Shown here in pieces: positions 5,922 through 58,168 of a DNA stretch of 64,000 nucleotides. A program made the translations under genes and the position numbers. Each line of letters starts with the position of its first letter. The stretch's first letter is position 1. This DNA comes from Actinomycetota bacterium (GTDB taxonomy: Bacteria > Actinomycetota > UBA4738 > CALAEC01): NCBI GenBank assembly GCA_035642095.1, contig DASQTB010000048.1, positions 2,496 through 66,495 on the forward strand, in the 5' to 3' direction. The notes below the pieces were generated by a model. The model was given only the letters and a program-made list of their open reading frames with translations. It was not told where the DNA came from and did not search any database.

Positions 5922-5923
5922 CG

Positions 5924-6655: not shown

Positions 6656-6688
6656 CGTGCTTCTCCGAGCGTCGTCGAGGGGTGACCG

Positions 6689-38543: not shown

Positions 38544-38595
38544 TCGCTGCGCGGCGACGCCTGGACCGTTCGGTCCCGCCAGCATCGACCGGGCT

Positions 38596-41079: not shown

Positions 41080-41086
41080 CCGCCGG

Positions 41087-41779
41087 CTACCGGGAGATGG
41101 TCATCTCGGTGACATGGGCCGCGCCGGGGTCGAGAGCGACTCGGAGAATCTGCCGGGCCACGTGGCGCGGATCCATGTAGTCGGTCAGGTCGGGCATCCG
41201 CCCCGTCTCGGGGGACCAGAACGCGGTCCGCATACCACCGGGGTAGACGGTCAGGGTTCGGACGGAGGTGCCCTTGAGGGCGATGCGGAGCGCCTCCATG
41301 AATCCTCGGGCGCCCCACTTGGCGGCGCAGTAGACCGCTTCCTCGGCCCGACCGACGAGTGCGGCCGAGGACAGGACGCTCACCACGGTCCCTCCGGTCG
41401 CCCGGAGGGCCGGGAGGGCAGCCGCCGTGGCGAGCATCAGCCCCTTCAGGTTCGCCGCCAAGACCTCGTCGATCATGGCTTCGGTCAGGTCTTCCACCGG
41501 GCCGAACCGTCCCACGCCAGCGGCGTTCACCAGGAAGCCGAGGGATCCCATGGCCGCGACCTGGTCGAAGGTCGATCGCACCTGGCTCTCGCTGGACACG
41601 TCGCACACCATCCCGTGGGCGTCGGCCCCCTCGCCGCGAAGGCGTTCCACCGCTTCTCCGACAGTCTGAGCATCTCGGGCGATGATCGAAACGGCCATGC
41701 CCGCGGCCGCCAGTGATTCGGCCAGGGCGAACCCGAGGCCGGAGCTTCCTCCCGTTACCACCGCCCTGTTTCGAGCCAT
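41087..41779 (-). CDS. SDR-family short-chain dehydrogenase/reductase
   Basis: TGGSSGLG cofactor motif. Catalytic YxxxK region (YCAAK). Confidence 0.8.
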   Translation of the reverse strand: MARNRAVVTGGSSGLGFALAESLAAAGMAVSIIARDAQTVGEAVERLRGEGADAHGMVCDVSSESQVRSTFDQVAAMGSLGFLVNAAGVGRFGPVEDLTEAMIDEVLAANLKGLMLATAAALPALRATGGTVVSVLSSAALVGRAEEAVYCAAKWGARGFMEALRIALKGTSVRTLTVYPGGMRTAFWSPETGRMPDLTDYMDPRHVARQILRVALDPGAAHVTEMTISR

Positions 41780-41883
41780 GACATCCTCCGCCCCAGCCCG
41801 GGGCCCACGATAGCCCGTGGGCCACGGTCGCCGAGCGGTCGCTCGCTTGACAACGACTCGCCGGGAGTGCTTGGCTCCGGGTT

Positions 41884-41895
41884 TGACAACGTTGT
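41884..41895 (+). promoter_or_regulatory. LacI-family operator palindrome GACAACGTTGTC (site 1, upstream of lacI-ABC operon)
   Basis: Perfect 12-nt palindrome within TGACAACGTTGTCG, 13 nt before the lacI start. A degenerate copy TTGACAACGACTC lies at 41846..41858. Confidence 0.6.
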
Positions 41896-41907
41896 CGGAG
41901 CCCGAGG

Positions 41908-42930
41908 ATGGCGTCCGGAGCGGGGATGAGTGAGCGTCCCACGATGGTGGACGTGGCCAGGCTAGCCGGGGTGAGCCTCAAGACCGTCTCGCGTGTGGTG
42001 AACCATGAGGCGGGGGTTCGACCGGAGACCGAGTCTCGGGTTCGGGGGGCCGTGGAGGCCCTCGGGTACCGCGCGAACGACATCGCCAGGAACCTTCGAC
42101 GAGGCCGACCGTCGGCGACCATCGGCCTGGTCATCGAGGACGTCCGCAACCCTTTCTACTCAGCGGTGGCCCGTGCGGTCGAGCAGGTGGCCAGGGACCA
42201 CGGCTACGTCGTCGTTATCGCGAACTCAGACGAGGACGCGGCGGCGGAGCGCAAGGCGGCGGCCAGCCTGCTGGAGCGACGAGTGGGCGGGCTCCTGATC
42301 GTTCCGGCCGGCCGTGACCACGCGTACCTCCGGAACGAGGTCCGCCTGGGCACGCCGGTCGTGTTCATGGACCGGCCGGCCGACTCGATCGACGCTGACG
42401 AGGTGCTGCTCGACAACGCGGGCGGGGCGCGCCAGGCGGCCGAGCATCTGCTCGCCCGGGGCCATCGCCGGATCGCGGTGGTGGCCGACTCCCCGGACAT
42501 CGTTACGATCGCCGAGCGGCTGTCGGGGTATCGCCGAACCGTGGAGGCGGCTGGTCTGACCGTGGACGAGACCCTGATCAGGACCGGCCTGCACGATGTG
42601 CGGGATGCCGAGGCAGCGACTGTCCACCTCCTGGCCTTGTCCGACCCGCCCACGGCCATCTTCGCCACGAACAACCGGGGGTGCGTCGGGGCTCTCCGGG
42701 CTCTCCACGTTCGTTCGGAGGAACGCTCTCGCGCCGCCCTGGTGGGGTTCGACGACTTCGAGCTGGCCGATCTCCTCCAGGTCACCGTGGTGCGGCACGA
42801 CCCCCACGAGATGGGCCGGCGGGCGGCGGACCTTCTGTTTGCCAGGCTGTCGGGCGACGAGAGCCCACCCCAGCGGATCGTCCTCCCGACCGAGCTCGTG
42901 GTCCGCGCCTCCAAGGAGACCTCGCCATGA
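41908..42930 (+). CDS. LacI-family transcriptional repressor
   Basis: HTH with MVDVARLAGVSLKTVSRVVN. Periplasmic-binding-protein-like effector domain. Confidence 0.85.
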   Translation: MASGAGMSERPTMVDVARLAGVSLKTVSRVVNHEAGVRPETESRVRGAVEALGYRANDIARNLRRGRPSATIGLVIEDVRNPFYSAVARAVEQVARDHGYVVVIANSDEDAAAERKAAASLLERRVGGLLIVPAGRDHAYLRNEVRLGTPVVFMDRPADSIDADEVLLDNAGGARQAAEHLLARGHRRIAVVADSPDIVTIAERLSGYRRTVEAAGLTVDETLIRTGLHDVRDAEAATVHLLALSDPPTAIFATNNRGCVGALRALHVRSEERSRAALVGFDDFELADLLQVTVVRHDPHEMGRRAADLLFARLSGDESPPQRIVLPTELVVRASKETSP

Positions 42931-43706
42931 CCGGGGCCGAAGCGGCCGCCCCCGATGGATACCTGCTCGAAGCCCGCGGGATCGTCAAGCGCTACGGGCA
43001 CGTTCAGGCGCTTCAGGAGGCGGACTTCGACGTGCTCCCCGGGGAGGTCACCGCGCTGGTTGGAGACAACGGCGCCGGGAAGAGCACCCTGATCAAGATT
43101 CTGTCGGGCACGGTTCAGCCGGATGCCGGGAAGATTCGCTTCGAGGGCCATCCGGTGACGATCCACTCGCCGCTCGACGCCCGCCGTCTCGGCGTGGAGA
43201 CCGTGTACCAGGACCTGGCTCTGGCCGAGGACCTGGACCCGGCGGCGAACCTCTTCCTGGGGCGGGAGCTGCTGCGGCCGGGCGTGCTCGGCATGGTGGG
43301 GTTCATCGACAAGCGGGCGATGAGAGGCCGCGCGTCGGAATCGTTCAGGACACTCGGCATCGACCTCCAGGACATGGATGCCGAGGTCGGCATGCTCTCG
43401 GGTGGCCAGCGACAGACGGTGGCCGTCAGCCGGGCTGCCACGTGGGCCAGCCGGGTGATCTTCATGGACGAACCGACCGCGGCGCTCGGGGTGGTTCAGG
43501 CGGAGCGGGTCCTCGAACTCGTCCGGCGGATCCGAGAATCGGGGAAGTCGGTCGTCCTGATCAGCCACAACCTGCCGCAGGTGTTCCAGGCGGCGGACCG
43601 GATCCAGGTGCTGCGCCTGGGTCGGCGGGTGGCCGCCTTCCGGGCCGAAGAGGTGACCATGGACGAGGTCGTCGGCGCGATGACGGGCGCCGCGGAGGAG
43701 GGGTAG
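42927..43706 (+). CDS. sugar ABC transporter ATP-binding protein (single nucleotide-binding domain, 259 aa)
   Basis: ATG overlaps the lacI stop (ATGA). Walker A GDNGAGKST, signature LSGGQRQ, Walker B VIFMDEPT. Confidence 0.85.
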   Translation: MTGAEAAAPDGYLLEARGIVKRYGHVQALQEADFDVLPGEVTALVGDNGAGKSTLIKILSGTVQPDAGKIRFEGHPVTIHSPLDARRLGVETVYQDLALAEDLDPAANLFLGRELLRPGVLGMVGFIDKRAMRGRASESFRTLGIDLQDMDAEVGMLSGGQRQTVAVSRAATWASRVIFMDEPTAALGVVQAERVLELVRRIRESGKSVVLISHNLPQVFQAADRIQVLRLGRRVAAFRAEEVTMDEVVGAMTGAAEEG

Positions 43707-43709
43707 GCC

Positions 43710-44759
43710 GTGGTCCGGGAGCGCAGGCCGCTCGACCGACGGGAGCTGACCCGCCACCCCGAAGAGGGGGGATGGGGGGCGCGGAGCGGTCTGGTGCGGC
43801 TGACCGCAGCCACGTCGACATGGATCTTCTTGGTGCTGGTGGTGATCATCGCCATATTCTCGATCCTCAACTTCGACGCGTTTGCGTCGGTGTTCAACCT
43901 GCGCAACATCACCATCGACGCATCAAGCCTCGTGATCGTGGCGGTGGGGATGACGTTCGTGATCATCACCGGGGGGATCGACCTCTCGGTCGGATCGGTC
44001 CTGGTGTTCTCTCAGGTGGTGGCGGCCCTGGTCATGCGAGGGATGGGGGCGGAGGGGATGGCAGTCATCCTGGCCGGCCTCGGGAGCGCGCTGCTGTCCG
44101 GGCTCGTCTGGGGGCTTCTGAACGGGGTGCTGATCGCCAAGACGCGGATGCCCGCGCTGATCGTGACCTTGGGGACGCTCGGCATGGCGCAGGGTGCAGC
44201 GCTGCTGCTCAGCGGGGGGATCAACATCCGGCGGGCGGTTCCGACGGAACTCGTCACCACGGTAGGGATCGGGCGGCTGTTCGGCCAGATCCCTTATCAG
44301 GTCGTGATCGCGGCCGGAATCACCGTGATTGGGGGGATCCTGCTGCACCTCACTCGGTTTGGCCGACACACGTATGCGATCGGCTCGAACGCCGAGGCGT
44401 CGCGCCGGGCCGGGATCAACGTGGCCGGGCACCTGATCAAGGTGTACGCGATGTCCGGAGTGCTGGCGGGGATGGCCGGGTACCTGCTGCTGGCGCGGTT
44501 CACCACGACCACGATCGAGGGACACGGGACCACCAACCTGCAGGCGATCGCGGCGGTAGTCATCGGAGGAACCAGCTTGTTCGGCGGGATCGGCACGGTG
44601 TTCGGCACGGTTGTGGGTGTGTTCATCCCGTCGATCCTTCGGAACGGGTTCATCATCCTCGGCGTCGAACCGTTCTGGCAGCAAGTTGCTGTGGGAGCGA
44701 TCTTGATCTTGGCGGTGTACGTCGATCAGTTGAAGCGTCGCGCTCGTGAGCGGAAGTAG
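43710..44759 (+). CDS. sugar ABC transporter permease (RbsC/AraH-like)
   Basis: Starts 4 nt after the ATPase stop. Ten predicted TM segments. Matches the branched monosaccharide ABC permease family pattern. Confidence 0.8.
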   Translation: MVRERRPLDRRELTRHPEEGGWGARSGLVRLTAATSTWIFLVLVVIIAIFSILNFDAFASVFNLRNITIDASSLVIVAVGMTFVIITGGIDLSVGSVLVFSQVVAALVMRGMGAEGMAVILAGLGSALLSGLVWGLLNGVLIAKTRMPALIVTLGTLGMAQGAALLLSGGINIRRAVPTELVTTVGIGRLFGQIPYQVVIAAGITVIGGILLHLTRFGRHTYAIGSNAEASRRAGINVAGHLIKVYAMSGVLAGMAGYLLLARFTTTTIEGHGTTNLQAIAAVVIGGTSLFGGIGTVFGTVVGVFIPSILRNGFIILGVEPFWQQVAVGAILILAVYVDQLKRRARERK

Positions 44760-44837
44760 ACGAGCCGGAAGGAGGGAGGCGATCGGTTTCAGCACCGGCC
44801 GGGACGAAAGCGGGCAGCCGGAAAGAGGAGGAGTGCA

Positions 44838-45815
44838 ATGAGAAGAAGGTTACTGGTCCTCCTGGCCGTGATGGCTGTGGTCGCCGGAGCGTGCGGCGAC
44901 GACGGCGATGAGGCCGGGGGTGCGGGAGGCGGTGAAGAGTCGTTCGACATCGTCCTGATCCAGGGCGTCGCGGGAGACGAGTTCTACATCACGATGGACT
45001 GCGGGGCCCGCGCCGCCGCCGAGGAGCTCGGGGTGAACTACTCGGTGCAGGGGCCGAACGAGTTCGATCCCACGGAGCAGATACCGATCGTGGAGGCCGT
45101 GACAGCTCAGCAGCCGGACGCCATCCTGATCGCCCCGACGGAGCGCACGGCCCTGATCGGGCCGCTCCAGGCGGCCCAGGATGCCGGGATCACCGTGGTG
45201 CTGGTAGATACCATCGTGGACGACCCGAACATCGGCGTCTCCCGGATCGCTACCGACAACGTGGAGGGCGGTCGGGTCGCCGGCGAGGCACTGGTCGAGC
45301 TGATCGGCGGCGAGGGCTCGGTGTTCGTCAACACCACCCAGCCGGGGGTCTCCACGGTCGAAGAGAGGCAGCAGGGATTCGAGGAGGTGATCGAGGGCGA
45401 GCCGGGGATCGAATATCTCGGTGCCGAGTTCAACAACGACGACCCGACCCGGGCTGCTCAGATCACGTCGGCGGTCCTGGCCCGCAACCCGGACCTGGCC
45501 GGTGTCTTCGCCACGAACCTGTTCTCGGCCGAGGGCGCGGCCACCGCGCTTCGAGACGCCGGTGCCCAGGACCAGGTTTCCATCGTCGGCTTCGACGCCA
45601 GCCCCGGTCAGGTCGATCAGCTGGAGGAGGGGCTGGTCCAGGCGCTGGTGGCCCAGAACCCCAGAGAGATCGGGTTCCGGGGCGTGCAGACGGCCGTAGC
45701 GGCGCTGCGGGGCGAGGAGCACGAGGAGGAGATCACCACCCCGCTGACGGTGGTGACCCAGGACAACCTGGAGGACCCGGAGGTCCAGGACACCCTGTAT
45801 CTCGGGGAGTGCTGA
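44838..45815 (+). CDS. sugar ABC transporter substrate-binding lipoprotein (RbsB-like periplasmic binding protein)
   Basis: RBS GGAAAGAGGAGG. Lipobox VVAGAC. Type-I PBP fold (VLIQGVAGDEFY...). Confidence 0.8.
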   Translation: MRRRLLVLLAVMAVVAGACGDDGDEAGGAGGGEESFDIVLIQGVAGDEFYITMDCGARAAAEELGVNYSVQGPNEFDPTEQIPIVEAVTAQQPDAILIAPTERTALIGPLQAAQDAGITVVLVDTIVDDPNIGVSRIATDNVEGGRVAGEALVELIGGEGSVFVNTTQPGVSTVEERQQGFEEVIEGEPGIEYLGAEFNNDDPTRAAQITSAVLARNPDLAGVFATNLFSAEGAATALRDAGAQDQVSIVGFDASPGQVDQLEEGLVQALVAQNPREIGFRGVQTAVAALRGEEHEEEITTPLTVVTQDNLEDPEVQDTLYLGEC

Positions 45816-45868
45816 TCTCGGTCTGATCGAACGTGTGGCTGGCGCCGGTTTCGGCGCCGGCCGCACGG

Positions 45869-47011
45869 TCAGCCTCCGGGGGGGACGGGCTCGGCGGCCT
45901 GGGACTCCGATGATCGGAGGGCCGCCTCGAACAGGCGGTGCGCCTCGAGCGCCTCCTCGGCATTCGCGCACGGGAACCCGTCACCGAGAAGGCCCGCCCG
46001 CTCGGCGAGGAACGCTGCCCACATCTGCAGCACGGCATCCGAGAAGCCGAACTCAAAGATGGCGCCTGTCACGGTCGGGAACACGGACTGGCTGCCCGTC
46101 TCCATTCCTTCCCAGACCTGGCGCCCGTCCCGAACCGTGAACCGGCGCACGGTCTTCGGCCGGGCGGTCGAGAACTCCACGCCGCCTTCCATCCCCACGG
46201 CCCGGATCCGCCAGGTGTTCATCTCCCCCGGCGAGATCCGCTTCGTCTCCACGGTCAGGGGGAACGTGGCGTCGTTTTCGCCTACGGTGCAGACGAGCGT
46301 GGCATTCTCGATTGTGTCGCAGGGAACCGGCGCGCCGTCCGGTCCCGGTCTCTCCGTGACGAGGTCCTGCAGAACGGCGTAGGTGCGCGTCGGATACCAG
46401 CCCAGCTTGAACGGGAGATGCAGGGCGTGCATGCCCAGGTCGCCCATCACGCCGATCCGTCCGCACAACCGGGCTTGACGTTTCCAGTTGGCCGGCTTGT
46501 GGACGTCCAGATCGCTCGAATGGAGGAACGCTGAGCTGGCCTCGATCACCCGTCCGAGTCTCCCAGTTCGTATCGTCTCGAAGGCGAGCTGAGCCCCGGG
46601 GAAGTAGGGCATCTCGCTGGAGCACCGGACGAACAGGTTCGGTCGCCTCCGCAGCACCTCGACGATCCGTTCGCATGCGGCGAGGTCGATCCCGAACGGC
46701 TTCTCACCGAGGAAGTCCTTGCCGGCCTCGATCGCCGCCACGTATAGCTTCTCGTGGAGATGGTGCGGCACCGCGATGTACAAGACGTCGACGACGTCGT
46801 CCTCGAGCAGCTGGCGGTAGTCGGTGCTTGTCAACCGAACCGTGTCGATGCGTTCGAACCAGGCCAGGGCCTTGGGGTCCGAATCGCACACGGCGGTGAG
46901 TGTCGGGCGGACCGGATGGCTCTGGAGTGCCGGCCACCGCTGAATTGCGGCGGCGACCTCCTTGCCCATCAGACCGCCGCCGATGATCCCGATCTGGACC
47001 TCGGAGGTCAC
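45869..47011 (-). CDS. Gfo/Idh/MocA-family NAD(P)-dependent oxidoreductase
   Basis: N-terminal Rossmann motif IGIIGGGLMGKE. C-terminal alpha/beta domain. Confidence 0.8.
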   Translation of the reverse strand: MTSEVQIGIIGGGLMGKEVAAAIQRWPALQSHPVRPTLTAVCDSDPKALAWFERIDTVRLTSTDYRQLLEDDVVDVLYIAVPHHLHEKLYVAAIEAGKDFLGEKPFGIDLAACERIVEVLRRRPNLFVRCSSEMPYFPGAQLAFETIRTGRLGRVIEASSAFLHSSDLDVHKPANWKRQARLCGRIGVMGDLGMHALHLPFKLGWYPTRTYAVLQDLVTERPGPDGAPVPCDTIENATLVCTVGENDATFPLTVETKRISPGEMNTWRIRAVGMEGGVEFSTARPKTVRRFTVRDGRQVWEGMETGSQSVFPTVTGAIFEFGFSDAVLQMWAAFLAERAGLLGDGFPCANAEEALEAHRLFEAALRSSESQAAEPVPPGG

Positions 47012-47015
47012 GAGC

Positions 47016-47855
47016 TCAGGAGGGCTCGTGCAGGAGGGTCAGGGCCTTCTCCGGGGACCAGTCGTCATGGACGACGGCCATCAGCGCCCGGGTGATCGCC
47101 TCCGGATTCGGGTGCTGGATGATGTTGCGCCCGTAGACGATCCCCGTGGCGCCCTGAGCGAGCACGGCCTGGGTTCGAATCAGGATCTCCTCGTCACTCA
47201 CCCGGCCTCCGCCGCGAACGAGGAGGGGGACCCGAGCGACCTGGACCACCCGGTGGTACTCGGAGACATCGTCGGTGGGATCGGCTTTGATGATGTCGGC
47301 CCCGAGCTCCACCGCCTGGCGGACCAGCGCCGTGATCCTTCCGACGTCGCCGTCGAGCGTGAGCCCGCCGTCGCCGGGCTTCATGACCAGCGGCTCCACC
47401 ATCAGGGGGATCGCCGCCGACTCACACAAGGTCTTGAGCCGGCCCACGTTCTCGATGCAGGCCCGGCGGAGCTCGTCGGCGCCGGGGATGTCGAACATGT
47501 TCACCACTACACAAACCGCGTCGAGGCGGACGGCGTGAGCGATCGGATCGTCGATCAGGACGGCAAAGGCCCTTTCGGGGGCCCTCCGTCCGTATACGTT
47601 TGCCACATCGCACCGAAGGACCAGGGCCGGCTTGTCGCGCCCCGGCCGTGACTGGAGGAGATCGGCCTGTCCCACGCTGAGCTGGATTGCGTCCGGCGCC
47701 GCCTCGACCAGTGCGGACACCGCGGCTTCCATGTCCTCGATGCCTGTGAGAAAGTCCCGCTCCCCGGCGAAGCCGTGGTCGACCGCCACGTCGAGGCACC
47801 GGTTCGAGCGGGGGTTGAACAGTCGGTTGAGACGATAGGACTTCACCGGCGACAT
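47016..47855 (-). CDS. class I aldolase of the DhnA/FbaB/LsrF/LacD superfamily
   Basis: Pattern LNRLFNPRSNRCLDVAVDHGF...DAIQL...GADIIKADP is typical of DhnA-type (TIM-barrel Schiff-base) aldolases. The stop is 4 nt from the MocA start. Confidence 0.7.
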   Translation of the reverse strand: MSPVKSYRLNRLFNPRSNRCLDVAVDHGFAGERDFLTGIEDMEAAVSALVEAAPDAIQLSVGQADLLQSRPGRDKPALVLRCDVANVYGRRAPERAFAVLIDDPIAHAVRLDAVCVVVNMFDIPGADELRRACIENVGRLKTLCESAAIPLMVEPLVMKPGDGGLTLDGDVGRITALVRQAVELGADIIKADPTDDVSEYHRVVQVARVPLLVRGGGRVSDEEILIRTQAVLAQGATGIVYGRNIIQHPNPEAITRALMAVVHDDWSPEKALTLLHEPS

Positions 47856-47895
47856 CCTCTTGACCAGCGGTCGAGACCGAACCTAGGCTAGCCAG

Positions 47896-47907
47896 GACAA
47901 CGTTGTC
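47896..47907 (+). promoter_or_regulatory. LacI-family operator palindrome GACAACGTTGTC (site 2, divergent aldolase/isomerase promoter region)
   Basis: Identical 12-nt palindrome to site 1. It lies in the 86-nt divergent intergenic region between 47855 (minus operon) and 47942 (plus operon). Confidence 0.6.
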
Positions 47908-47941
47908 AACACCAGTGCAGTGACCGCGGGGGGTCGGCCGG

Positions 47942-48994
47942 GTGGAGCCCATCGAGCTCGGGGTGAACCAGATCCACCGCTTCTACCGGGGTGGCCGGTC
48001 CATCGCGGAGTTCCGCGGCCTTCGCCACCAGGACGATTTAGGGCCGGAGGACTGGGTCGGGTCGGCGACGGCCGTCTTCGGATCGGAGACGCTTGGAGTG
48101 AGCAGGCTGACCGATGGTCGAACGCTCAGGGACGCCGTCGTGGCGGATCCGGAAGGGTTCCTGGGCCCCGAGCACGCGGAGCGGTTCGGAGCCGAGATCG
48201 GACTGTTGGTGAAGCTGCTGGATGCGGGCCAGCGGCTCCCGGTGCATTGCCATCCGAATCGGGAATTCTCGAGGCGCCACCTCGACTGCCCGTACGGGAA
48301 GACCGAAGCCTGGGTGATCGTCGGCGTGGGTTCGACCGACCCGGTCGTGCATCTCGGTTTCAGGCACAAGGTCGATCCGGAGACCCTCGCCGAGTGGGTG
48401 ACGCGACAGGACACCGAGGCGCTCCTCCAGGCCACCAATCGTCTCCCCGTCAAGATCGGGGACTCGGTCCTGGTCCCGGCGGGCATCCCGCACGCCATCG
48501 GCGAGGGGGTGTTCCTGGTCGAGCTTCAGGAGCCGACGGACCTCTCCGTGCTTCTCGAGTGGGACGGCTTCGATATCGACGGCGCCCTGGACGGACACCT
48601 CGGGCTGGGGTTCGATGTGGCCCTGGCTTGCGTCGACGCATCGGGCTGGGGGGGACGGCAGGTCGACCGGCTTCGCGGCCCGCGTCGTGGTCTCGCCGGG
48701 GCCCGGCCCGGGGTGGAGATCCTGTTCCCGACCGAAGCGGATCCGTTCTTCCGGGCCGAGCGGATCCGTCCTCCGGGAAGCACGCCGCTCCCGCCGTCCT
48801 TCTCCATCCTGGTGATCACCGCCGGATCGGGAACGCTCCGTTGGGCGAGTGCCGGGCGGGAGGTCGCTCGGGGAGACACCCTCCTGATCCCGTTCGCTGC
48901 GGGAACGTGTGAGTTGTCCGGCGCGGTCGAGGCGGTCCGATGCCTGCCTCCGGATCCGACGGCACCGGACGCCTCGGTGCCCGCGTTCCGATGA
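47942..48994 (+). CDS. class I mannose-6-phosphate-isomerase-like cupin sugar isomerase
   Basis: Type I PMI signatures (GKTEAWVIVG, LPVHCHPN, IPHAIGEG, LVELQEPTD). 350 aa. Confidence 0.75.
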   Translation: MEPIELGVNQIHRFYRGGRSIAEFRGLRHQDDLGPEDWVGSATAVFGSETLGVSRLTDGRTLRDAVVADPEGFLGPEHAERFGAEIGLLVKLLDAGQRLPVHCHPNREFSRRHLDCPYGKTEAWVIVGVGSTDPVVHLGFRHKVDPETLAEWVTRQDTEALLQATNRLPVKIGDSVLVPAGIPHAIGEGVFLVELQEPTDLSVLLEWDGFDIDGALDGHLGLGFDVALACVDASGWGGRQVDRLRGPRRGLAGARPGVEILFPTEADPFFRAERIRPPGSTPLPPSFSILVITAGSGTLRWASAGREVARGDTLLIPFAAGTCELSGAVEAVRCLPPDPTAPDASVPAFR

Positions 48995-50349
48995 CCGCAG
49001 AGCTGCTCCTCGGCCTTGACCTGGGCACCACTCATGCCAAGGCCGCGGTGGTGACGGTGGACGGCCGGGAACGTGCCCACGGCTCGGCGCCAACACCCTG
49101 GCGCACCCTGGCCACCGGGGCGGAGCTGGACCCTCGGGCTCTGGTCGAAACAGCGGTGACGGCCGCCCGGGCGGCGCTGGCTGCCGCACCGGAGGGCCGG
49201 GTGATCGGGGTCGGTGTGACGAGCATGGCCGAGACCGGTGCGCTGCTCGATCGGGAAGGAGAGCCGGTCACCCCGATGATCGCCTGGCACGACACCCGGG
49301 GCGACGAGCAGGCTGGCGAGCTGGCCCGTGCCGTCGGCCCACAGTGGTTCGCTCGGCGAGCCGGGCTTCCCATGAGCCGGTTGTGCACCGCGAGCAAGTA
49401 TCGGTGGCTGCGGGCCCACCTCCCGGGTGCCAAGGAAGGCGTTCGATGGCTCAACGTGGCGGAGTGGCTTGTGCGCAGCCTGGGGGGCGAGGAGGTGGCC
49501 GAGCTGTCGCTGTCCTCCCGGACGGGGTTCCTGGACCTGGCTCGGAAGGAATGGCTCGACGAGGTGCTCGACGCTGTGGAGGCTCCGGCCGGGTTCCTGC
49601 CCGACCCCGCCGATGCCGGGACGCCGGCGGGCACGGTGTCGCGCACGCTCGACGAGGCTCGCGGCGCCGTGTTGACCGTGGCGGGTCACGATCACCCCTG
49701 CGCCTCGGTCGGAGCGGGGGCCACCGAACCAGGTGACGTTTTCGACTCGTGTGGGACTGCGGAGGCCTTCGTTCGCGTGCTGGAAACGCCTCTCGGTCCC
49801 GACGACGTCGAGCGGGCGGTGTCGGGCGGGGTGACTGTGGGCTGGAGCGCCGTGCCGAACCAGCAGGCCCTGATGGCGGGATTCGTCTCGGGCCTGGCCC
49901 TGACCAGGTTTCTAAACCTTCTCGGTGTGGGCAAGAAGGGCCGAGCCGCCCTCGATGCCGCGGCCGTGGCGCTTCGGTCCGGCGCGGACGGGGTTTCGGT
50001 GGCCGGCGTGACGGACGACCGAGCCACGCTCGAGGGGATCCCCCGATCCGTGACTCCCGCACACGTCTGGCGGGCCGCGATCGAGGCGGTGACCCGGCAC
50101 GGCGAGCAGGTGTTGGAGACGATCGAGGCGGTCGCCGGCCCGACCACGAGGCTGGTGGTGACGGGAGGATGGGCCCGAAGCGTGGCCGTCCGGGCCGTCA
50201 AGCGGGAGATCCTGGGGCCGTACGATGAACCGGCGGTCGAGGAGGCCGGGGCTCGAGGGGCCGCGTTGATCGCCGGCCTCGCGGCGGGCGCCTTCTCGGG
50301 GATCGAGGACCTTCCTCCGATCGCTCGAGTCCGGCGCGACGAGGGATGA
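48991..50349 (+). CDS. FGGY-family carbohydrate kinase
   Basis: ATG overlaps the isomerase stop (ATGA). N-terminal LGLDLGTTHAKA. FGGY C-terminal domain (VVTGGWAR). Confidence 0.8.
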   Translation: MTAELLLGLDLGTTHAKAAVVTVDGRERAHGSAPTPWRTLATGAELDPRALVETAVTAARAALAAAPEGRVIGVGVTSMAETGALLDREGEPVTPMIAWHDTRGDEQAGELARAVGPQWFARRAGLPMSRLCTASKYRWLRAHLPGAKEGVRWLNVAEWLVRSLGGEEVAELSLSSRTGFLDLARKEWLDEVLDAVEAPAGFLPDPADAGTPAGTVSRTLDEARGAVLTVAGHDHPCASVGAGATEPGDVFDSCGTAEAFVRVLETPLGPDDVERAVSGGVTVGWSAVPNQQALMAGFVSGLALTRFLNLLGVGKKGRAALDAAAVALRSGADGVSVAGVTDDRATLEGIPRSVTPAHVWRAAIEAVTRHGEQVLETIEAVAGPTTRLVVTGGWARSVAVRAVKREILGPYDEPAVEEAGARGAALIAGLAAGAFSGIEDLPPIARVRRDEG

Positions 50350-51365
50350 GCATCCGATCGGCGGGCGGCTACGTCCGGGCGGGAAAGGTGGCCAACCTCG
50401 ATCACCTGGCCCGGGCCACGCTCTCGACCGTGGTCGATGGGCCGGCCCGCGGTTGCCGCGCTCTCGACCTCCGGGTGGCGGAGGGGGTGGACCTTCGGAT
50501 CCTGCCCGACCGTGGGTTCGACATCGGCGACGCCCGGTTCCGGGGGGTTCCTCTCTCCTGGATCTCGGCGATCGGCGAGACGGGGCCGCTGAACGTCCTG
50601 ACCGGACGATCATGGCTCCAGACGTTCGGGGGTGGCCTGATCACCACCTGCGGGCTCCGGAACGTGGGATCTCCCTCCGAGGGGCACGGGCTGCACGGTC
50701 TGTTCTCGCACCTCCGGGCCTCCGACGTGCGCTGGGACCGGGGGATCGAAGAAGACGACATCGTGCTCACCGCTCGAGCCACGATCGACGAGATCGACGC
50801 GGGGGGAGCGCACCTTCGGGTGGATCGAACCATCCGAACCCGTACCGGTCGCGGCCTGGTCGAACTGACCGACGTCACCTCGAACCTCGGAGCCGCGCCC
50901 GAGCCCGCACCGATCCTCTACCACGTGAACCTGGGCGTCCCTCTGTTCGACGAGGGAGCCACCGTGGACATCGACAGCGTCGAGGTCCTGCCCCGCGACG
51001 ACGACGCGGGGCGGGGGCGCCATTCATGGATGTCGCCGGGTCCTCCCGAGGATGGTGGAAGGGAGATGGTCTTCGAGCATCGGGTCCGACCCGACCGCTC
51101 GGGCTGGGGGCGGGCGGCCGTGGTCAACTCGTCAGCCCGGCTCGAGCTGATCCTCCGATGGCGGGCGACCGAGCTGCCCCGCTTCCACCAGTGGCTCCAT
51201 CTCCGTCGGTCGATGTACGTGTTGGGGCTCGAACCGGCGAACTGCTCGGTTCTCGGCCGGGCCGCCGACCGGGCGGCCGGAACACTTCCGGTCCTGGAAC
51301 CCGGAGCCCTCCGAACGACGGAGCTTCGGCTCGAGCCCCGGCGGCGAGTGCCTGACCGCGCATGA
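50346..51365 (+). CDS. DUF4432 / aldose-1-epimerase-like family protein
   Basis: ATG overlaps the kinase stop. Beta-sandwich mutarotase-like pattern (YHVNLGVP...). No closer assignment possible by eye. Confidence 0.5.
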   Translation: MSIRSAGGYVRAGKVANLDHLARATLSTVVDGPARGCRALDLRVAEGVDLRILPDRGFDIGDARFRGVPLSWISAIGETGPLNVLTGRSWLQTFGGGLITTCGLRNVGSPSEGHGLHGLFSHLRASDVRWDRGIEEDDIVLTARATIDEIDAGGAHLRVDRTIRTRTGRGLVELTDVTSNLGAAPEPAPILYHVNLGVPLFDEGATVDIDSVEVLPRDDDAGRGRHSWMSPGPPEDGGREMVFEHRVRPDRSGWGRAAVVNSSARLELILRWRATELPRFHQWLHLRRSMYVLGLEPANCSVLGRAADRAAGTLPVLEPGALRTTELRLEPRRRVPDRA

Positions 51366-52309
51366 TCGTCGCGGGGCCGAACATCACACTCGATCGCATC
51401 GTCCGGATCGACGAGCTCCGGCCCGGGGAGGTGCTGCGATTCTCTGAGGCGATCATCGCGCCTGGAGGGAAGGGCGCGAACGTGACCCGGGTGGCGAAGG
51501 CGCTGGGTTTCCCGGCAACCCTGGTCGCGCTTGCCCCCGGACGTACCGGCCGGGCCGTGATCGAGCTTCTCTTCGAAGAAGGCCTTCCGGTGGACGCCGT
51601 CGCTACGGGAGGCGAGGCTCGGGCGGCTTCGATTGTGCTCGAGTCGAGCGGTCGGGTCACCGTCCTCAACGAGCCGGGTGCCACGATCCGAGAGGAGGAC
51701 TGGGGAGCGTACGAGCGGACGGTGGCTGATCTTCTTCCCGGCCATGGCTTCCTGGTGTGCATCGGAAGCACCCCTCCCGGTAGCCCACCGGACGCGTACG
51801 GCAGGCTCGTCGTACTGGCCAGGGAACGCGGGATGCGCGCGCTGGTCGATGCGGCCGGCGACTCCCTGGCGGGCGCCCTGGTGGCAGCTCCCGAGCTCGT
51901 CACGCCGAGCCTGGGCGAGGCGGAAGGGATCATTCGCGGTGCCGGCCCCCAGCCCGCAGCGGAGCGGTCAGCGGACGTGCGGGATCGAGCTCTGGCGGCT
52001 GCCTCCGCCTTGGTCGGTCGAGGTGCGAGCACTGCCATGGTGACGGTCGCCCAGGGACTGGCTGTGGCTCGAGGTTCAGAGCGCTGGTGGGTGGATGCCC
52101 CGCCGGTCACCGTCCGGAACCCCATCGGGGCCGGCGACTCGCTGGTCGGCGGCCTGATCGGCTCGCTCGAGCGAGGCCACGACCTTCGAACCGCGCTACG
52201 CCTCGGCGTGGCCGCGGCATCGGCCAGCGTCGAGACGAACCTCCCGGGGGTCCTCGATGCTCGCCGCGTCCACACCCTGGTGGACCACGTGGCGATCGTG
52301 GAGCGTTGA
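51362..52309 (+). CDS. PfkB-family sugar-phosphate kinase (1-phosphofructokinase/tagatose-6-P kinase-like)
   Basis: Start overlaps the upstream stop. N-terminal NITLDR pattern like FruK/LacC. Anion-hole/ATP motif GAGDSLVGGL near the C-terminus. Confidence 0.8.
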   Translation: MIVAGPNITLDRIVRIDELRPGEVLRFSEAIIAPGGKGANVTRVAKALGFPATLVALAPGRTGRAVIELLFEEGLPVDAVATGGEARAASIVLESSGRVTVLNEPGATIREEDWGAYERTVADLLPGHGFLVCIGSTPPGSPPDAYGRLVVLARERGMRALVDAAGDSLAGALVAAPELVTPSLGEAEGIIRGAGPQPAAERSADVRDRALAAASALVGRGASTAMVTVAQGLAVARGSERWWVDAPPVTVRNPIGAGDSLVGGLIGSLERGHDLRTALRLGVAAASASVETNLPGVLDARRVHTLVDHVAIVER

Positions 52310-52416: not shown

Positions 52417-52684
52417 CTTTCAGGCTTGCAGGGAAACGGCGTACTCCGTGTCATCGTTCTGCCACCGGAAGATGAGGTGATCGCCGTCTCCTCTGGCCGC
52501 CGCGTCGAGGTCTCCGGTGAAGGTCGCCGAAGACCGGAATGAGGGGATCCTGCTCGGCGAAGGGGAACAGCAGGACCTCCCCGTCGGCGCCCCGTTGGGA
52601 CGCATCGATCAGGGTCGCCGTGGAGTAGTCGAGATGGAACACCACGCCGGATCCAGTCGGCCATGCTCGAGCCGGTGGCAGCAT
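52417..52684 (-). pseudogene. small ORF (about 88 aa) interrupted by one frameshift, unknown function
   Basis: Minus ORFs 52451..52684 and 52420..52605 read as one sequence if a 1-nt frameshift near 52525 is bridged. No recognisable domain. Confidence 0.2.
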
Positions 52685-52759
52685 CGGTCATCAGGCGCCG
52701 TGAAGTATGGGGGATCGACCGCTCACTATGCTGGGAGGCCCGGAAGGAAGGAGACGCAG

Positions 52760-53515: not shown

Positions 53516-53575
53516 GGATGATGGTTGGCGCCCCGACCGGCTCCCCGGCGTAAGGTAAGAGGAAGGGAGGGAGCA

Positions 53576-53686
53576 TGGGTGTGCAGATGCTGGCGGAGTG
53601 GACCACCGCCGACGGCGAGAGAGGCGCGTGGTTCAAGGACCCCGAAGGGAACATCCTGTCCCTGGCCCAGATCGCACCGTTCTGAC
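53576..53686 (+). CDS. 36-aa mini-ORF resembling the C-terminal module of a VOC/glyoxalase protein (probable remnant)
   Basis: Strong SD GGAAGGGAGGGAGC precedes the ATG. AWFKDPEGNILSL is the classical VOC C-terminal motif. Confidence 0.3.
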
Positions 53687-54107: not shown

Positions 54108-54171
54108 CCGGATTATCCCCTGCCCGGGTGGGGTTGGAACTCTGGTCAGGGAAGACTTGGCACAGGAAGGG

Positions 54172-54624: not shown

Positions 54625-54648
54625 CCGCGGCGGGCAGGCGGATCCCCC

Positions 54649-55401: not shown

Positions 55402-55412
55402 CCGGCGTCCCG

Positions 55413-55760: not shown

Positions 55761-55835
55761 GTCGACCTCCTCCGCTGTCCTCCCGATGGTGGGCCCCTGA
55801 GGTCAGGCCTTCATGAAGCTCGCATGAGGGTTCGT

Positions 55836-56121: not shown

Positions 56122-56133
56122 GTCGCCGGTAGC

Positions 56134-56616: not shown

Positions 56617-56770
56617 CGCTCCTCCTCTCGCCGCCCTCCATCATGACGAACGGCCCCGGCGGAGATCGACACGGGAGCGCCGTGAGACCGATGCCTGTTC
56701 CCCGGGACCTGACCCCCCGTGTCCCCACCGGAACGCGGTCATCCGGCGTCCGAGCGGTCACAATGGAGAG

Positions 56771-58168
<1,398 letters not shown>

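What the first reader, a model, noticed from the sequence alone, without database searches (positions are those of the whole stretch)
41846..52309. LacI-regulated carbohydrate locus with an unusual enzyme set, a candidate uncharacterised sugar/polyol pathway
The locus has a LacI repressor and an ABC transporter whose ATPase has a single NBD rather than the duplicated NBD of CUT2 importers. It also carries a Gfo/Idh/MocA dehydrogenase, a DhnA-type class I aldolase, a class I PMI-like cupin isomerase, an FGGY kinase, a DUF4432 mutarotase-like protein and a PfkB (FruK/LacC-like) kinase. Tight 4-nt overlaps link PMI-FGGY-DUF4432-PfkB and lacI-ATPase. Two different sugar kinases plus a Schiff-base aldolase suggest sequential phosphorylation to a bisphosphate that is then cleaved. 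That logic resembles tagatose-6-P, sulfo-EMP (YihR/S/V/T) or sedoheptulose-bisphosphate routes. The isomerase type (PMI cupin) and DUF4432 match none of the textbook operons, so the substrate is not predictable from annotation.
Basis: partly seen in the sequence, partly recalled or inferred. Interest (0 to 1): 0.65.

Follow-up and report, generated by a model that had tools for sequence, protein, structure and literature searches.

The report
LacI-controlled ketose-bisphosphate sugar catabolic locus
This is a real, co-regulated ten-gene sugar-utilisation locus of an uncultured soil actinobacterium that most likely imports a tagatose- or mannoheptulose-like sugar, phosphorylates it twice and splits it with an aldolase; it is an uncharacterised variant of a known type of pathway, not a new kind of system.

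Summary

The genes form a functional unit:
- The same set recurs in at least 10 independent metagenomic contigs with shuffled gene order.
- The palindrome TGACAACGTTGTCA sits in the promoter gaps of every version.
- One lineage fuses the PMI-like cupin in frame to the FGGY kinase.

The bisphosphate-then-aldolase logic is supported:
- The PfkB kinase keeps the Arg-Arg-Ser phosphate-recognition triad of Pfk-2/LacC.
- The aldolase keeps the Schiff-base lysine.
- Sister loci replace the DhnA-type aldolase with a LacD-like, tagatose-bisphosphate-type one.

- The binding protein is 45% identical to Agrobacterium vitis Avi_5339, reported to bind mannoheptulose, with the same residues at 9 of the 10 ribose-contact positions of RbsB.
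- A DUF4432 homologue lies in the experimentally validated E. coli Nissle D-tagatose cluster.

Sulfo-EMP and Lsr readings fail their tests. The single NBD is normal for this transporter subgroup. The roles of the cupin, DUF4432 and Gfo/Idh/MocA enzymes and the exact sugar remain open. Verdict: new variant of a known kind, moderate interest.

The parts
41884..41897 (.). LacI-type operator 1 (TGACAACGTTGTCG), 11 nt upstream of the lacI start. It lies in the gap shared with a divergent SDR gene and contains a TTGACA -35-like hexamer.
   Evidence: Equivalent sites lie upstream of lacI in L001, L003, L004, L018 and L021.
41908..42930 (+). LacI-family repressor (340 aa), first gene of the lacI-ABC operon
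   Evidence: Pfam LacI HTH plus Peripla_BP_1/3. Orthologues are 55-72% identical in L001, L003, L004 and L018.
42927..43706 (+). CUT2-type ABC ATPase with a single nucleotide-binding domain (259 aa). It would act as a homodimer.
   Evidence: One ABC_tran domain. It matches only the N-terminal half of YtfR, AraG and RbsA. ATGA overlap with lacI.
43710..44759 (+). ABC permease (349 aa), a single gene, so presumably a homodimer
   Evidence: PF02653 BPD_transp_2, AraH/RbsC-like.
44838..45815 (+). Solute-binding protein (325 aa), probably a lipoprotein, of the Avi_5339 (PDB 5DKV) type
   Evidence: PF13407. 5dkv_A E 7.7e-72. 45.5% identity, with the same residue at 9 of the 10 RbsB ligand positions (position 164 is D here and N in 5DKV).
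45869..47011 (-). Gfo/Idh/MocA NAD(P) oxidoreductase (380 aa), second gene of the aldolase operon. Its role is unassigned.
   Evidence: PF01408/PF22725. GGGLMG and GEKPF motifs are present. Best solved relative is levoglucosan dehydrogenase 6a3f, E 2.5e-23. Always paired with the DhnA-type aldolase in orthologous loci.
47016..47855 (-). Class I (Schiff-base) aldolase of the DhnA/ADH-synthase/LsrF group (279 aa). Proposed ketose-bisphosphate aldolase.
   Evidence: PF01791 E 1.8e-33. MJ0400 E 1.7e-23. The lysine in ELGADIIKADP aligns with the catalytic lysines of MJ0400, LsrF and T. tenax FBPA. DHG and GRNI(I)Q motifs are kept.
47895..47908 (.). LacI-type operator 2 (GGACAACGTTGTCA) in the divergent aldolase/cupin promoter gap
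   Evidence: The same site lies in the same gap in L001, L002 and L009-L012, and in the aldolase/DUF4432 gap in L004 and L015.
47942..48994 (+). PMI-like double-cupin metallo-isomerase (350 aa). Proposed aldose-ketose isomerase coupled to the FGGY kinase.
   Evidence: Weak PMI_typeI_cat and MPI_cupin_dom matches; TIGR00218 E 4e-14. 1qwr E 1.2e-11. Metal ligands H104, E122 and H184 are invariant. Fused in frame to FGGY in L093/L094.
48991..50349 (+). FGGY carbohydrate kinase (452 aa). Proposed first phosphorylation, at the terminal carbon.
   Evidence: FGGY_N/FGGY_C. Best families are xylulokinase and glycerol kinase, far below cut-offs. ATGA overlap with the cupin gene.
50346..51365 (+). DUF4432 protein (339 aa) with a galactose-mutarotase-like fold. 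Proposed anomerase or ring-opening enzyme for the imported sugar.
   Evidence: PF14486 E 7.5e-82. AlphaFold model pLDDT 81.6. Foldseek: 3ty1 TM 0.82, GalM 4bze TM 0.64. 31% identical to ECOLIN_RS18670 of the E. coli Nissle tagatose cluster. Invariant H117, D176, Y192-H193, N195 and E296.
51362..52309 (+). PfkB-family phosphosugar kinase (315 aa) of the Pfk-2/FruK/LacC group. Proposed second phosphorylation, to the bisphosphate.
   Evidence: TIGR03168 206.4 bits against a cut-off of 216.4. Pfk-2, FruK and LacC structures E 4e-29 to 4e-25. R29/R90/S139 triad and GAGD motif are conserved.
39682..41779 (-). Possible extra regulon members: SDR (41087-41779) and GlcD-like FAD oxidase (39682-41079), transcribed divergently from lacI
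   Evidence: Pfam. They share the 128-bp gap that holds operator 1. An SDR orthologue (71% identical) is in the same position in L001. Membership is unproven.

Best explanation
**Organisation.** The locus is a LacI-repressed regulon of three transcription units:
- lacI-ATPase-permease-binding protein
- aldolase-Gfo
- cupin-FGGY-DUF4432-PfkB

Each promoter gap carries the palindrome TGACAACGTTGTCA.

**Proposed pathway.**
1. A lipoprotein binding protein of the Avi_5339 type delivers a lyxo/manno-configured monosaccharide to a CUT2 importer built from one permease gene and a single-NBD ATPase. The most likely sugar is a ketose such as D-tagatose or D-mannoheptulose.
2. The mutarotase-fold DUF4432 protein speeds ring opening or anomer/pyranose-furanose exchange.
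3. The PMI-like metallo-isomerase and the FGGY kinase act consecutively to give a ketose omega-phosphate.
4. The Pfk-2/LacC/FruK-type PfkB kinase phosphorylates C1.
5. The class I aldolase cleaves the ketose bisphosphate to DHAP plus glyceraldehyde-3-P (hexose) or erythrose-4-P (heptose).

**Status of the claims.** Shown here by sequence: family membership, intact catalytic and ligand motifs, co-regulation signals, conserved co-occurrence and the gene fusion. Inferred: every reaction, the order of isomerase and kinase, and the identity of the sugar. The Gfo/Idh/MocA enzyme has no assigned step.
For: **Gene families and motifs**
- Families assigned by Pfam and NCBIfam.
- PfkB keeps the R-R-S 6-phosphate triad and GXGD, unlike free-sugar TagK or sulfosugar YihV (with PMC8006165).
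- The aldolase Schiff-base lysine and phosphate motifs are kept.
- The cupin metal ligands are invariant.
- DUF4432 has a mutarotase fold.

**Functional unit**
- The operator is conserved in the promoter gaps of loci with different gene orders.
- The full set recurs in L001-L004, L009-L012 and L015-L018.
- An in-frame cupin-FGGY fusion is seen in two independent assemblies.

**Substrate lead**
- The binding protein matches 5dkv at E 7.7e-72, with the same residue at 9 of the 10 RbsB-equivalent contact positions (position 164 is D here and N in 5DKV).
- Avi_5339 is reported to bind mannoheptulose, 'structurally similar to D-tagatose'. A kinase-kinase-aldolase route was proposed for its cluster (PMC5507952).
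- The Agrobacterium homologous cluster has a single-NBD ABC system plus a ROK kinase and a gene annotated 'tagatose-bisphosphate aldolase'.

**Non-orthologous replacements that keep the same logic**
- A LacD-like aldolase in L003/L018, 36% identical to the Agrobacterium one.
- Class II aldolase plus two TagK-like PfkB genes in Neomoorella.
- LacD-like aldolase plus PfkB plus PfkA in Meiothermus.

**Experimental anchor**
- The E. coli Nissle cluster (ABC system, tagatose kinase, aldolase and a DUF4432 gene) confers growth on D-tagatose via Tag-6-P and Tag-1,6-BP (PMC9720028). Its DUF4432 is 31% identical to ours.
Against: - There is no experiment on any protein of this locus or its close relatives.
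- No protein reaches an equivalog cut-off.
- The aldolase is nearer to ADH synthase and LsrF than to FbaB. The residue aligned with the catalytic Tyr of archaeal class IA aldolases is not Tyr, though that alignment is uncertain.
- If the imported sugar is already a ketose, the isomerase has no obvious catabolic role.
- In L021 and Embleya the cupin is replaced by a YihS-like free-sugar isomerase. That fits an imported aldose such as mannose better.
- The Avi_5339 ligand data are an unpublished observation quoted second-hand. The 5DKV ligand (alpha-D-tagatopyranose) is my recollection and could not be checked here.
- No FGGY kinase is known to phosphorylate tagatose or a heptulose in bacteria (own knowledge).
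- The Gfo enzyme is unexplained.
- The E. coli tag binding protein is only 26% identical and has a different pocket.
Confidence: 0.55

Rival explanations
1. D-mannose (or another manno-aldose) utilisation. The sugar is imported as an aldose and anomerised by DUF4432. It is converted to fructose-6-P by kinase plus a true PMI, or by isomerase plus kinase. It then runs through a locus-encoded phosphofructokinase (PfkB) and class I FBP aldolase, forming a self-contained glycolytic module.
For: - NCBI and JGI pipelines name the cupin homologues 'mannose-6-phosphate isomerase', and the PMI metal ligands are kept.
- In Embleya and L021 the same transporter, repressor and operator go with a YihS-like mannose-isomerase-family enzyme plus a PfkB kinase. 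In Embleya no aldolase or further sugar enzyme was found in the ORFs checked around the transporter, which is a complete mannose-to-F6P route.
- DhnA-family and Pfk-2-family enzymes do act on FBP and F6P (established knowledge).
- Mannose is far more abundant in soil than rare ketoses.
Against: - The binding pocket matches that of a protein reported to bind ketoses with an anomeric CH2OH, not mannose.
- A dedicated PFK and aldolase are unnecessary for F6P.
- Sister loci use a LacD-like (tagatose-bisphosphate-type) aldolase and TagK-like kinases.
- FGGY kinases are not known as aldohexose 6-kinases (own knowledge).
Confidence: 0.2
2. Heptose salvage. D-glycero-D-manno-heptose (for example from lipopolysaccharide) is imported and converted by the PMI-like isomerase and FGGY kinase to sedoheptulose-7-P. 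It is phosphorylated to sedoheptulose-1,7-bisphosphate by PfkB and cleaved to DHAP plus erythrose-4-P.
For: - It uses the same stereochemistry as the PMI reaction.
- Every core enzyme gets a role.
- The binding-protein relative binds a heptulose.
- Sedoheptulokinase is an FGGY enzyme, and PFK plus FBP aldolase are known to process S7P and SBP (own knowledge).
- No bacterial heptulose catabolic cluster was found in the literature held.
Against: - It is purely stereochemical reasoning.
- S7P could enter the pentose phosphate pathway directly.
- There is no evidence that the binding protein accepts an aldoheptose.
- The Gfo enzyme is still unexplained.
Confidence: 0.1
3. Ketose-1-phosphate route. 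PfkB or FGGY makes a ketose-1-P. The aldolase gives DHAP plus an unphosphorylated aldehyde. The co-transcribed Gfo enzyme oxidises or reduces that aldehyde, and the FGGY kinase (glycerol-kinase-like) or the neighbouring GlcD-like oxidase processes the product.
For: - The aldolase and Gfo genes are always co-transcribed.
- The best solved relatives of the FGGY protein are glycerol kinases.
- GlcD-like FAD oxidases lie near the cluster in the window, L001/L002, L003 and L004.
Against: - PfkB carries the phosphosugar R-R-S triad.
- The cupin-FGGY fusion ties FGGY to the isomerase step, not to a triose.
- The GlcD-like genes are paralogues only 30-40% alike, and none was detected in L017 or L018.
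- Loci with a LacD-like aldolase lack the Gfo gene.
Confidence: 0.08
4. A sulfoquinovose (sulfo-EMP-like) locus: isomerase, sulfofructose kinase, sulfofructose-phosphate aldolase and mutarotase, with Gfo acting on sulfolactaldehyde.
For: - The Pfam families for kinase and aldolase are the same as YihV and YihT, and a mutarotase-like protein is present.
- Arthrobacter sulfo-EMP clusters carry an ABC system and an unexplained IolG (Gfo-family) homologue (PMC8873060).
- The L021 isomerase is 47% identical to YihS.
Against: - No BLAST similarity (E<1e-3) of the window proteins to YihR, YihS, YihT or YihV.
- PfkB has the phosphate RRS triad, not the sulfonate KRN triad.
- The YihS-like enzymes of sister loci keep only 1 of 3 sulfonate-pocket residues.
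- There is no sulfoquinovosidase, sulfolactaldehyde dehydrogenase or reductase, or TauE-type exporter among the flanking genes.
- There are two kinases.
Confidence: 0.03
5. An autoinducer-2/DPD-like (Lsr-type) uptake and processing system: CUT2 transporter, FGGY kinase and LsrF-like enzyme.
For: - The aldolase matches LsrF structures at E 3.8e-20 and the LsrF family at 106 bits.
- The FGGY protein has weak LsrK similarity.
Against: - All scores are far below the cut-offs (LsrF 106 vs 297; LsrK 64 vs 528; LsrB 49 vs 384).
- There is no LsrG.
- The PfkB, cupin and DUF4432 genes have no place in that pathway.
Confidence: 0.02

Closest known systems
ABC-dependent D-tagatose cluster of E. coli Nissle 1917 / B2 phylogroup (ECOLIN_RS18670-18695; PMC9720028)
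   Same: - CUT2 ABC importer.
- A DUF4432 'aldose 1-epimerase family' gene, 31% identical.
- Route: sugar to ketose-6-P to ketose-1,6-bisphosphate to aldolase cleavage.
- The DUF4432 role is untested there too.
   Different: - The kinase there is a free-sugar PfkB (TagK), and the second phosphorylation is done by host PfkA. Here the kinases are FGGY plus a Pfk-2/LacC-type PfkB.
- The aldolase there is class II GatY-like; here it is class I.
- The ATPase there has tandem NBDs.
- The binding protein is only 26% identical, with a different pocket.
- There is no isomerase, no Gfo gene, and a DeoR rather than a LacI regulator.
Avi_5339-type cluster of Agrobacterium/Rhodobacteraceae, proposed (not tested) to catabolise mannoheptulose via a 1,7-bisphosphate (PMC5507952)
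   Same: - Binding protein 44-45% identical, with the same residue at 9 of 10 contact positions.
- Single-NBD ATPase (49% identical) and a single permease.
- Kinase, kinase, class I aldolase logic.
   Different: - The kinases are ROK plus an APS-kinase-like P-loop enzyme instead of FGGY plus PfkB.
- The aldolase is LacD-type. In the window it is DhnA-type, though sister loci L003/L018 are LacD-like.
- There is no cupin, DUF4432 or Gfo gene, and the regulators are SorC/DeoR types.
Tagatose-6-phosphate pathway LacABCD of Gram-positive bacteria
   Same: A PfkB-family phosphosugar kinase followed by a class I (PF01791) aldolase that yields DHAP plus GAP.
   Different: - There is no LacAB (RpiB-type) isomerase.
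- LacC and LacD equivalog scores are not reached.
- Entry is by ABC transport and an FGGY kinase, not by PTS.
Sulfo-EMP pathway YihQRSTUV
   Same: It uses the same sequence of reaction types (mutarotase, isomerase, PfkB kinase, PF01791 aldolase). This is what the locus works like in outline.
   Different: There is no orthology to any Yih protein, no sulfonate-recognition residues and no sulfoquinovosidase, reductase or exporter, and there are two kinases.
Rhizobial tagatose/galactitol clusters (S. meliloti, A. tumefaciens), as described in PMC9720028
   Same: ABC import of D-tagatose and phosphorylation to Tag-6-P.
   Different: Those convert Tag-6-P to Fru-6-P with an epimerase and have no second kinase or aldolase.

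Membership tests
CUT2 ABC sugar importer (RbsABC-like) | RbsB-type binding protein (Peripla_BP_4) and BPD_transp_2 permease | tested here: met
   PF13407 E 4.2e-63 and PF02653 E 1.6e-36.
CUT2 ABC sugar importer (RbsABC-like) | ATPase with two fused NBDs (about 500 aa), as in RbsA, XylG and AraG | tested here: not met
   The ATPase is 259 aa with one ABC_tran domain and aligns to profile positions about 1-240 of about 500. The same holds in all orthologous loci and in the Avi_5339-type transporter, so this is a recurrent single-NBD subgroup.
E. coli Nissle D-tagatose cluster | DUF4432 gene in the cluster | tested here: met
   ECOLIN_RS18670 is PF14486 (E 6.6e-104) and 31% identical to the window protein over 320 aa.
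E. coli Nissle D-tagatose cluster | TagK-type PfkB tagatose kinase | tested here: not met
   Only a 60-aa local match to the window PfkB, and no RRS-less TagK-like gene is present. An FGGY kinase takes that place.
E. coli Nissle D-tagatose cluster | Class II GatY-like tagatose-bisphosphate aldolase | tested here: not met
   The window aldolase is PF01791, class I.
E. coli Nissle D-tagatose cluster | Growth on or induction by D-tagatose | not testable with these tools
   The organism is uncultured; the sequence comes from a soil metagenome.
Avi_5339-type (proposed mannoheptulose) cluster | Binding protein homologous to Avi_5339 with the same ligand-contact residues | tested here: met
   5dkv E 7.7e-72, 45.5% identity. 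The pattern D-F-Y-D-T-R-(D/N)-N-D-Q appears at the RbsB-equivalent positions in both. The RbsB reference sequence and its contact list came from memory.
Avi_5339-type (proposed mannoheptulose) cluster | ROK and COG0529 kinases and a LacD-family aldolase | tested here: not met
   The window has FGGY, PfkB and a DhnA-type aldolase. A LacD-like aldolase is present only in sister loci L003, L018 and L021.
Avi_5339-type (proposed mannoheptulose) cluster | Binding of mannoheptulose or tagatose | not testable with these tools
   Needs DSF, ITC or crystallography.
PfkB phosphosugar kinases (Pfk-2/FruK/LacC; TIGR03168) | Family score at or above the curated cut-off | tested here: not met
   206.4 bits against a cut-off of 216.4. 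The 1-PFK equivalog scores 192.9 against 292.
PfkB phosphosugar kinases (Pfk-2/FruK/LacC; TIGR03168) | Arg-Arg-Ser phosphate-recognition triad and GXGD catalytic motif | tested here: met
   R, R and S stand at the Pfk-2 positions 29, 90 and 139, and GAGD is present, in the window protein and its orthologues. TagK and YihV lack the triad (definition in PMC8006165).
Class I aldolase, DhnA/FbaB - ADH synthase - LsrF group | PF01791 fold with the Schiff-base lysine | tested here: met
   PF01791 E 1.8e-33. The K in ELGADIIKADP aligns with K of MJ0400 (ELGADIVKTSY), LsrF (K203, absent in the 4p2v mutant) and T. tenax FBPA.
Class I aldolase, DhnA/FbaB - ADH synthase - LsrF group | Equivalog-level membership (FbaB, ADH synthase or LsrF) | tested here: not met
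   139 vs 241, 127 vs 299, 106 vs 297 and 82 vs 430 bits.
Type I phosphomannose isomerase | Family score (TIGR00218 / Pfam PMI domains) | tested here: inconclusive
   TIGR00218 scores 52.6 against 116.2. PMI_typeI_cat scores 22.5 against 22. MPI_cupin_dom scores 24 against 27.
Type I phosphomannose isomerase | Metal ligands (His, Glu, His) | tested here: met
   VHCHP, GKTEAW and IPHAIG align with the KVHPD, GKTECW and TLHAL motifs of B. subtilis 1QWR. H104, E122 and H184 are invariant in five homologues. That these motifs hold the metal ligands is from my own knowledge.
Type I phosphomannose isomerase | Activity on mannose-6-P rather than on a free sugar | not testable with these tools
   Replacement by a free-sugar AGE-family isomerase in L021 and L092 hints at a free-sugar substrate.
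Galactose-mutarotase-like superfamily | Mutarotase beta-sandwich fold | tested here: met
   Model pLDDT 81.6 and pTM 0.86. Foldseek gives 3ty1 at E 1.7e-21 (TM 0.82) and GalM 4bze at E 1.4e-11. Sequence-profile comparison with E. coli GalM found nothing.
Sulfo-EMP (YihQRSTUV) | Orthologues of YihS, YihV, YihT and YihR, and sulfonate-binding residues | tested here: not met
   No BLAST hit at E<1e-3 for any window protein. The KRN triad is absent.
myo-Inositol catabolism (Iol) | IolG, IolE, IolD, IolB, IolC and IolJ set | tested here: not met
   There are only weak IolG/IolC-type family matches (47.7 vs 355; 36.7 vs 300). No IolE or IolD families appear in the locus or its flanks.

The most novel reading that the evidence does not exclude
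The locus encodes the first dedicated bacterial catabolic pathway for a seven-carbon sugar: D-mannoheptulose, or manno-heptose/sedoheptulose. The route runs via a heptulose-1,7-bisphosphate and needs four unassigned enzyme functions:
- an FGGY heptulokinase functionally coupled to a PMI-like isomerase
- a PfkB heptulose-7-P 1-kinase
- a DhnA-type heptulose-bisphosphate aldolase
- DUF4432 as a ketose/heptose anomerase

It would also assign the DUF4432 gene of the E. coli B2 tagatose cluster.
Probability: 0.2. Interest if true: 0.7.

Novelty: new variant of a known kind. Interest (0 to 1): 0.42.

Why it matters
- The locus gives a defined, testable gene set for a sugar pathway that appears widespread in uncultured soil Actinomycetota. 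Relatives occur in Euzebyales, Egibacteraceae and Solirubrobacterales, with looser versions in Deinococcota and Bacillota.
- Thousands of its cupin homologues are automatically labelled 'mannose-6-phosphate isomerase', and its DUF4432 homologues carry only generic or hypothetical-protein labels. Those labels are probably incomplete or wrong.
- Assigning DUF4432 would also settle the open question left by the E. coli Nissle/B2 D-tagatose cluster.
- If the sugar turns out to be a heptulose, it would fill a gap, since no bacterial heptulose catabolic genes are described.

Tried and rejected
**Searches that gave nothing usable**
- Profile comparison of the DUF4432 alignment with E. coli GalM gave nothing. 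The fold search was needed instead.
- The consensus promoter/terminator scan found nothing useful in this 70% GC DNA.
- A literature search for DUF4432 returned two irrelevant papers.
- Searches for bacterial heptulose or FGGY-tagatose pathways found nothing relevant.
- The ligand of PDB 5DKV could not be confirmed from the held literature.

**Readings considered and rejected**
- Sulfo-EMP was taken seriously after finding YihS-like isomerases in sister loci and an unexplained IolG homologue in Arthrobacter sulfo-EMP clusters. It was rejected on residue and similarity tests.
- Lsr/AI-2 and inositol catabolism were rejected on family scores and missing genes.

**Tested and downgraded**
- I tested whether GlcD-like FAD oxidases are orthologous companions of the cluster. 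They are only 30-40% alike and none was detected in L017 or L018, so they are left as an unexplained association.
- DUF4432 contexts on rhizobial and Streptomyces plasmids turned out to be unrelated pathways. They do not inform this locus.

**Correction**
- My recollection that the SqvD sulfoquinovose isomerase is PMI-like was wrong. It is FucI-family.

Full report
**What is there**

The window is about 70% GC. Proteins identical to the window's DUF4432 protein occur on ENA soil-metagenome contigs. The nearest relatives are MAGs labelled Actinomycetota.

Between 41908 and 52309 lie ten genes in three transcription units:
- lacI, a 259-aa ABC ATPase, a BPD_transp_2 permease and an RbsB-type binding protein, on the + strand.
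- A DeoC/DhnA-type class I aldolase followed by a Gfo/Idh/MocA oxidoreductase, on the - strand.
- A PMI-like cupin, an FGGY kinase, a DUF4432 protein and a PfkB kinase, on the + strand.

None of the ten proteins reaches an NCBIfam equivalog cut-off. On annotation alone the locus is indeed unassigned.

**It is a functional unit**

Neighbourhoods of DUF4432 homologues were examined in two sets of loci (and the 80 genome loci, screened with tblastn). The same set of genes recurs in MAGs of Actinomycetota, Euzebyales, Egibacteraceae and Solirubrobacteraceae. Identities are 47-93% and the gene orders differ.

The 14-bp palindrome TGACAACGTTGTCA occurs twice in the window with one mismatch each. One site is 11 nt upstream of lacI. 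The other is in the divergent aldolase/cupin gap. One-mismatch copies sit in the corresponding promoter gaps of most related loci in which the motif was searched (L016 has only a two-mismatch match and L017 none), wherever those gaps have moved.

In one lineage the cupin and the FGGY kinase are a single 838-aa reading frame. It is seen in two independent assemblies. This marks them as consecutive steps.

**The transporter**

The ATPase has one nucleotide-binding domain and matches only the first half of RbsA-type proteins. This is the rule for the subgroup: orthologous loci, the Agrobacterium relative and the Meiothermus relative all share it. With a single permease gene the importer is simply homodimeric.

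**The substrate lead**

The binding protein's best solved relative by far is 5dkv, A. vitis Avi_5339 (E 7.7e-72, 45.5% identity). I checked the ten positions that contact ribose in E. coli RbsB; the reference sequence and contact list are from my own knowledge. Nine positions carry identical residues (D-F-Y-D-T-R at the first six, N-D-Q at the last three) and position 164 is D or N in all of these:
- the window protein
- 5dkv
- the Agrobacterium plasmid homologue
- the orthologues in L001, L003 and L004
- the Meiothermus protein

The E. coli tagatose binding protein differs.

Leyn et al. (PMC5507952) report that Avi_5339 binds mannoheptulose, 'structurally similar to D-tagatose'. They proposed, without testing, a kinase-kinase-aldolase route for its cluster. 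I recall the 5DKV ligand as alpha-D-tagatopyranose but could not verify this here.

The Agrobacterium cluster around the homologue holds a ROK-type kinase and a gene annotated 'tagatose-bisphosphate aldolase'.

**The bisphosphate logic**

The PfkB protein scores 206 bits against the Pfk-2/FruK/LacC subfamily model, whose cut-off is 216. In an alignment it keeps three features:
- the Arg of the 'TR' motif
- the second Arg and the Ser, which together with the first form the 6-phosphate-recognition triad of Pfk-2 and LacC
- the GXGD catalytic motif

The free-sugar tagatose kinase of E. coli Nissle and the sulfofructose kinase YihV lack that triad (triad definition from PMC8006165).

The aldolase aligns its lysine (ELGADIIKADP) with the Schiff-base lysines of MJ0400, LsrF and T. 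tenax FBP aldolase. It also keeps the DHG and GRNI(I)Q motifs.

Related loci replace parts with analogues that do the same job:
- Solirubrobacterales loci use a LacD-like aldolase, 36% identical to the Agrobacterium one, and lack the Gfo gene.
- Meiothermus has two FGGY genes, DUF4432, PfkB, a LacD-like aldolase, ROK, Gfo and PfkA.
- Neomoorella has LacI, two TagK-like PfkB genes, a PMI-like cupin, DUF4432 and a class II aldolase.

**DUF4432**

The family match is strong (E 7.5e-82). The AlphaFold model (pLDDT 81.6) matches the Klebsiella 'putative aldose 1-epimerase' 3ty1 (TM 0.82) and true galactose mutarotases. Residues H117, D176, Y192-H193, N195 and E296 are invariant across distant members. 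By analogy with GalM they would form the sugar-binding and acid/base set; this is inference.

The experimentally validated D-tagatose cluster of E. coli Nissle contains a DUF4432 gene 31% identical to ours. Its authors state that its function is untested. In other genomes DUF4432 sits in unrelated sugar contexts. It is therefore a generic accessory enzyme, not a pathway marker.

**The cupin**

It is a diverged type I PMI homologue whose metal ligands are intact. Metagenomes hold thousands of homologues, all auto-annotated as mannose-6-phosphate isomerase.

In Embleya sp. and a Solirubrobacterales MAG, the same transporter, repressor and operator are combined with a YihS-like AGE-family isomerase instead of the cupin. 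That isomerase is 44-47% identical to E. coli YihS but keeps only one of its three sulfonate-pocket residues. The kinase alongside it is TagK-like.

AGE enzymes act on free sugars. The cupin may therefore also isomerise a free aldose of manno configuration before phosphorylation. This is the main tension with a ketose ligand. It is why a D-mannose or manno-heptose reading is kept as a rival.

**Most likely mechanism**

1. LacI repression is relieved by the sugar or a phosphorylated intermediate.
2. A lyxo/manno-configured sugar is imported by the ABC system.
3. DUF4432 opens the ring or exchanges anomers.
4. The cupin and FGGY kinase isomerise the sugar and add the first phosphate.
5. PfkB adds the second phosphate.
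6. The class I aldolase cleaves the product to DHAP plus GAP or E4P.

All reaction steps are inferred. What is shown is family membership, intact motifs, co-regulation signals, co-occurrence and the fusion.

**Excluded readings**

- Sulfo-EMP: no similarity to any Yih protein, and phosphate rather than sulfonate recognition.
- Lsr: family scores far below cut-offs.
- Inositol catabolism: IolD and IolE are missing.

**Unexplained**

- The Gfo/Idh/MocA enzyme has intact NAD and EKP motifs. It is always co-transcribed with the DhnA-type aldolase.
- GlcD-like FAD oxidases lie near several versions of the cluster.
- The aldolase is nearer to ADH synthase and LsrF than to FbaB.

**Verdict**

The substrate class can be narrowed to tagatose/mannoheptulose-like or manno-configured sugars. 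The locus is a new variant of a known kind of pathway, not a new kind of system.

Noticed in passing
window 39682-41779 (- strand): An SDR gene (41087-41779) and a GlcD-like FAD-linked oxidase (39682-41079) are transcribed divergently from lacI. They share the 128-bp gap that holds operator 1. An SDR orthologue (71% identical) sits in the same place in L001. They may belong to the regulon.
   Followed up: partly
L093 12334-14850 and L094 12334-14850: An in-frame fusion of the PMI-like cupin and the FGGY kinase (838 aa, with a linker of about 40 aa) occurs in two independent metagenome assemblies. The fused gene follows lacI and precedes the ABC genes.
   Followed up: yes
L021 18701-20035; L092 (Embleya sp. 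NBC_00888) 5848-7512: The same transporter, LacI and operator are combined with a YihS-like AGE-family isomerase instead of the cupin. That isomerase is 47% and 44% identical to E. coli sulfoquinovose/mannose isomerase. Of the YihS sulfonate pocket only R55 is kept (Q362 is H, Q379 is P).
   Followed up: yes
L001 11990-14827; L002 6478-9330: A 945-950-aa fusion of GlcD-like FAD oxidase and Fe-S/CCG domains follows the PfkB gene directly on the same strand. GlcD/GlcE/GlcF-like genes also lie within 10 kb in L003 and L004. They are paralogues only 30-40% alike.
   Followed up: partly
L056 (Neomoorella carbonis) 548-1597 and 8862-9950: Two URO-D-family (uroporphyrinogen decarboxylase / methyltransferase-like) genes are interleaved with the sugar transporter, DUF4432 and aldolase genes of this acetogen's related cluster.
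   Followed up: no
L089, L090, L096, L005 (plasmids): DUF4432 genes on Agrobacterium, Sinorhizobium, Pararhizobium and Streptomyces replicons sit in quite different contexts. One is next to a glycerophosphodiester phosphodiesterase and an inositol monophosphatase. Others are next to Gfo, a sugar-phosphate isomerase/epimerase, an SDR and a CoA transferase. The family serves several pathways.
   Followed up: partly
window 47016-47855: In the HMMER alignments, the residue that lines up with the catalytic Tyr of archaeal class IA FBP aldolases (the S-Y-P motif) falls in M-K-P in this aldolase. The alignment there is gapped and uncertain.
   Followed up: no
window 35960-35973: A third, weak operator-like match (GGACAACGTGGTCG, 3 mismatches) lies far upstream. 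Matches at this mismatch level are expected by chance (mean 0.89 per shuffle).
   Followed up: no
window 37209-39270 and 52517-58168: Flanking genes look unrelated to the locus. Upstream are an adenylate/guanylate cyclase and a HAD hydrolase. Downstream are an alpha/beta hydrolase, a cupredoxin-domain protein and a class II fumarase. The downstream synteny (copper-binding protein, fumarase) is shared with L095.
   Followed up: partly
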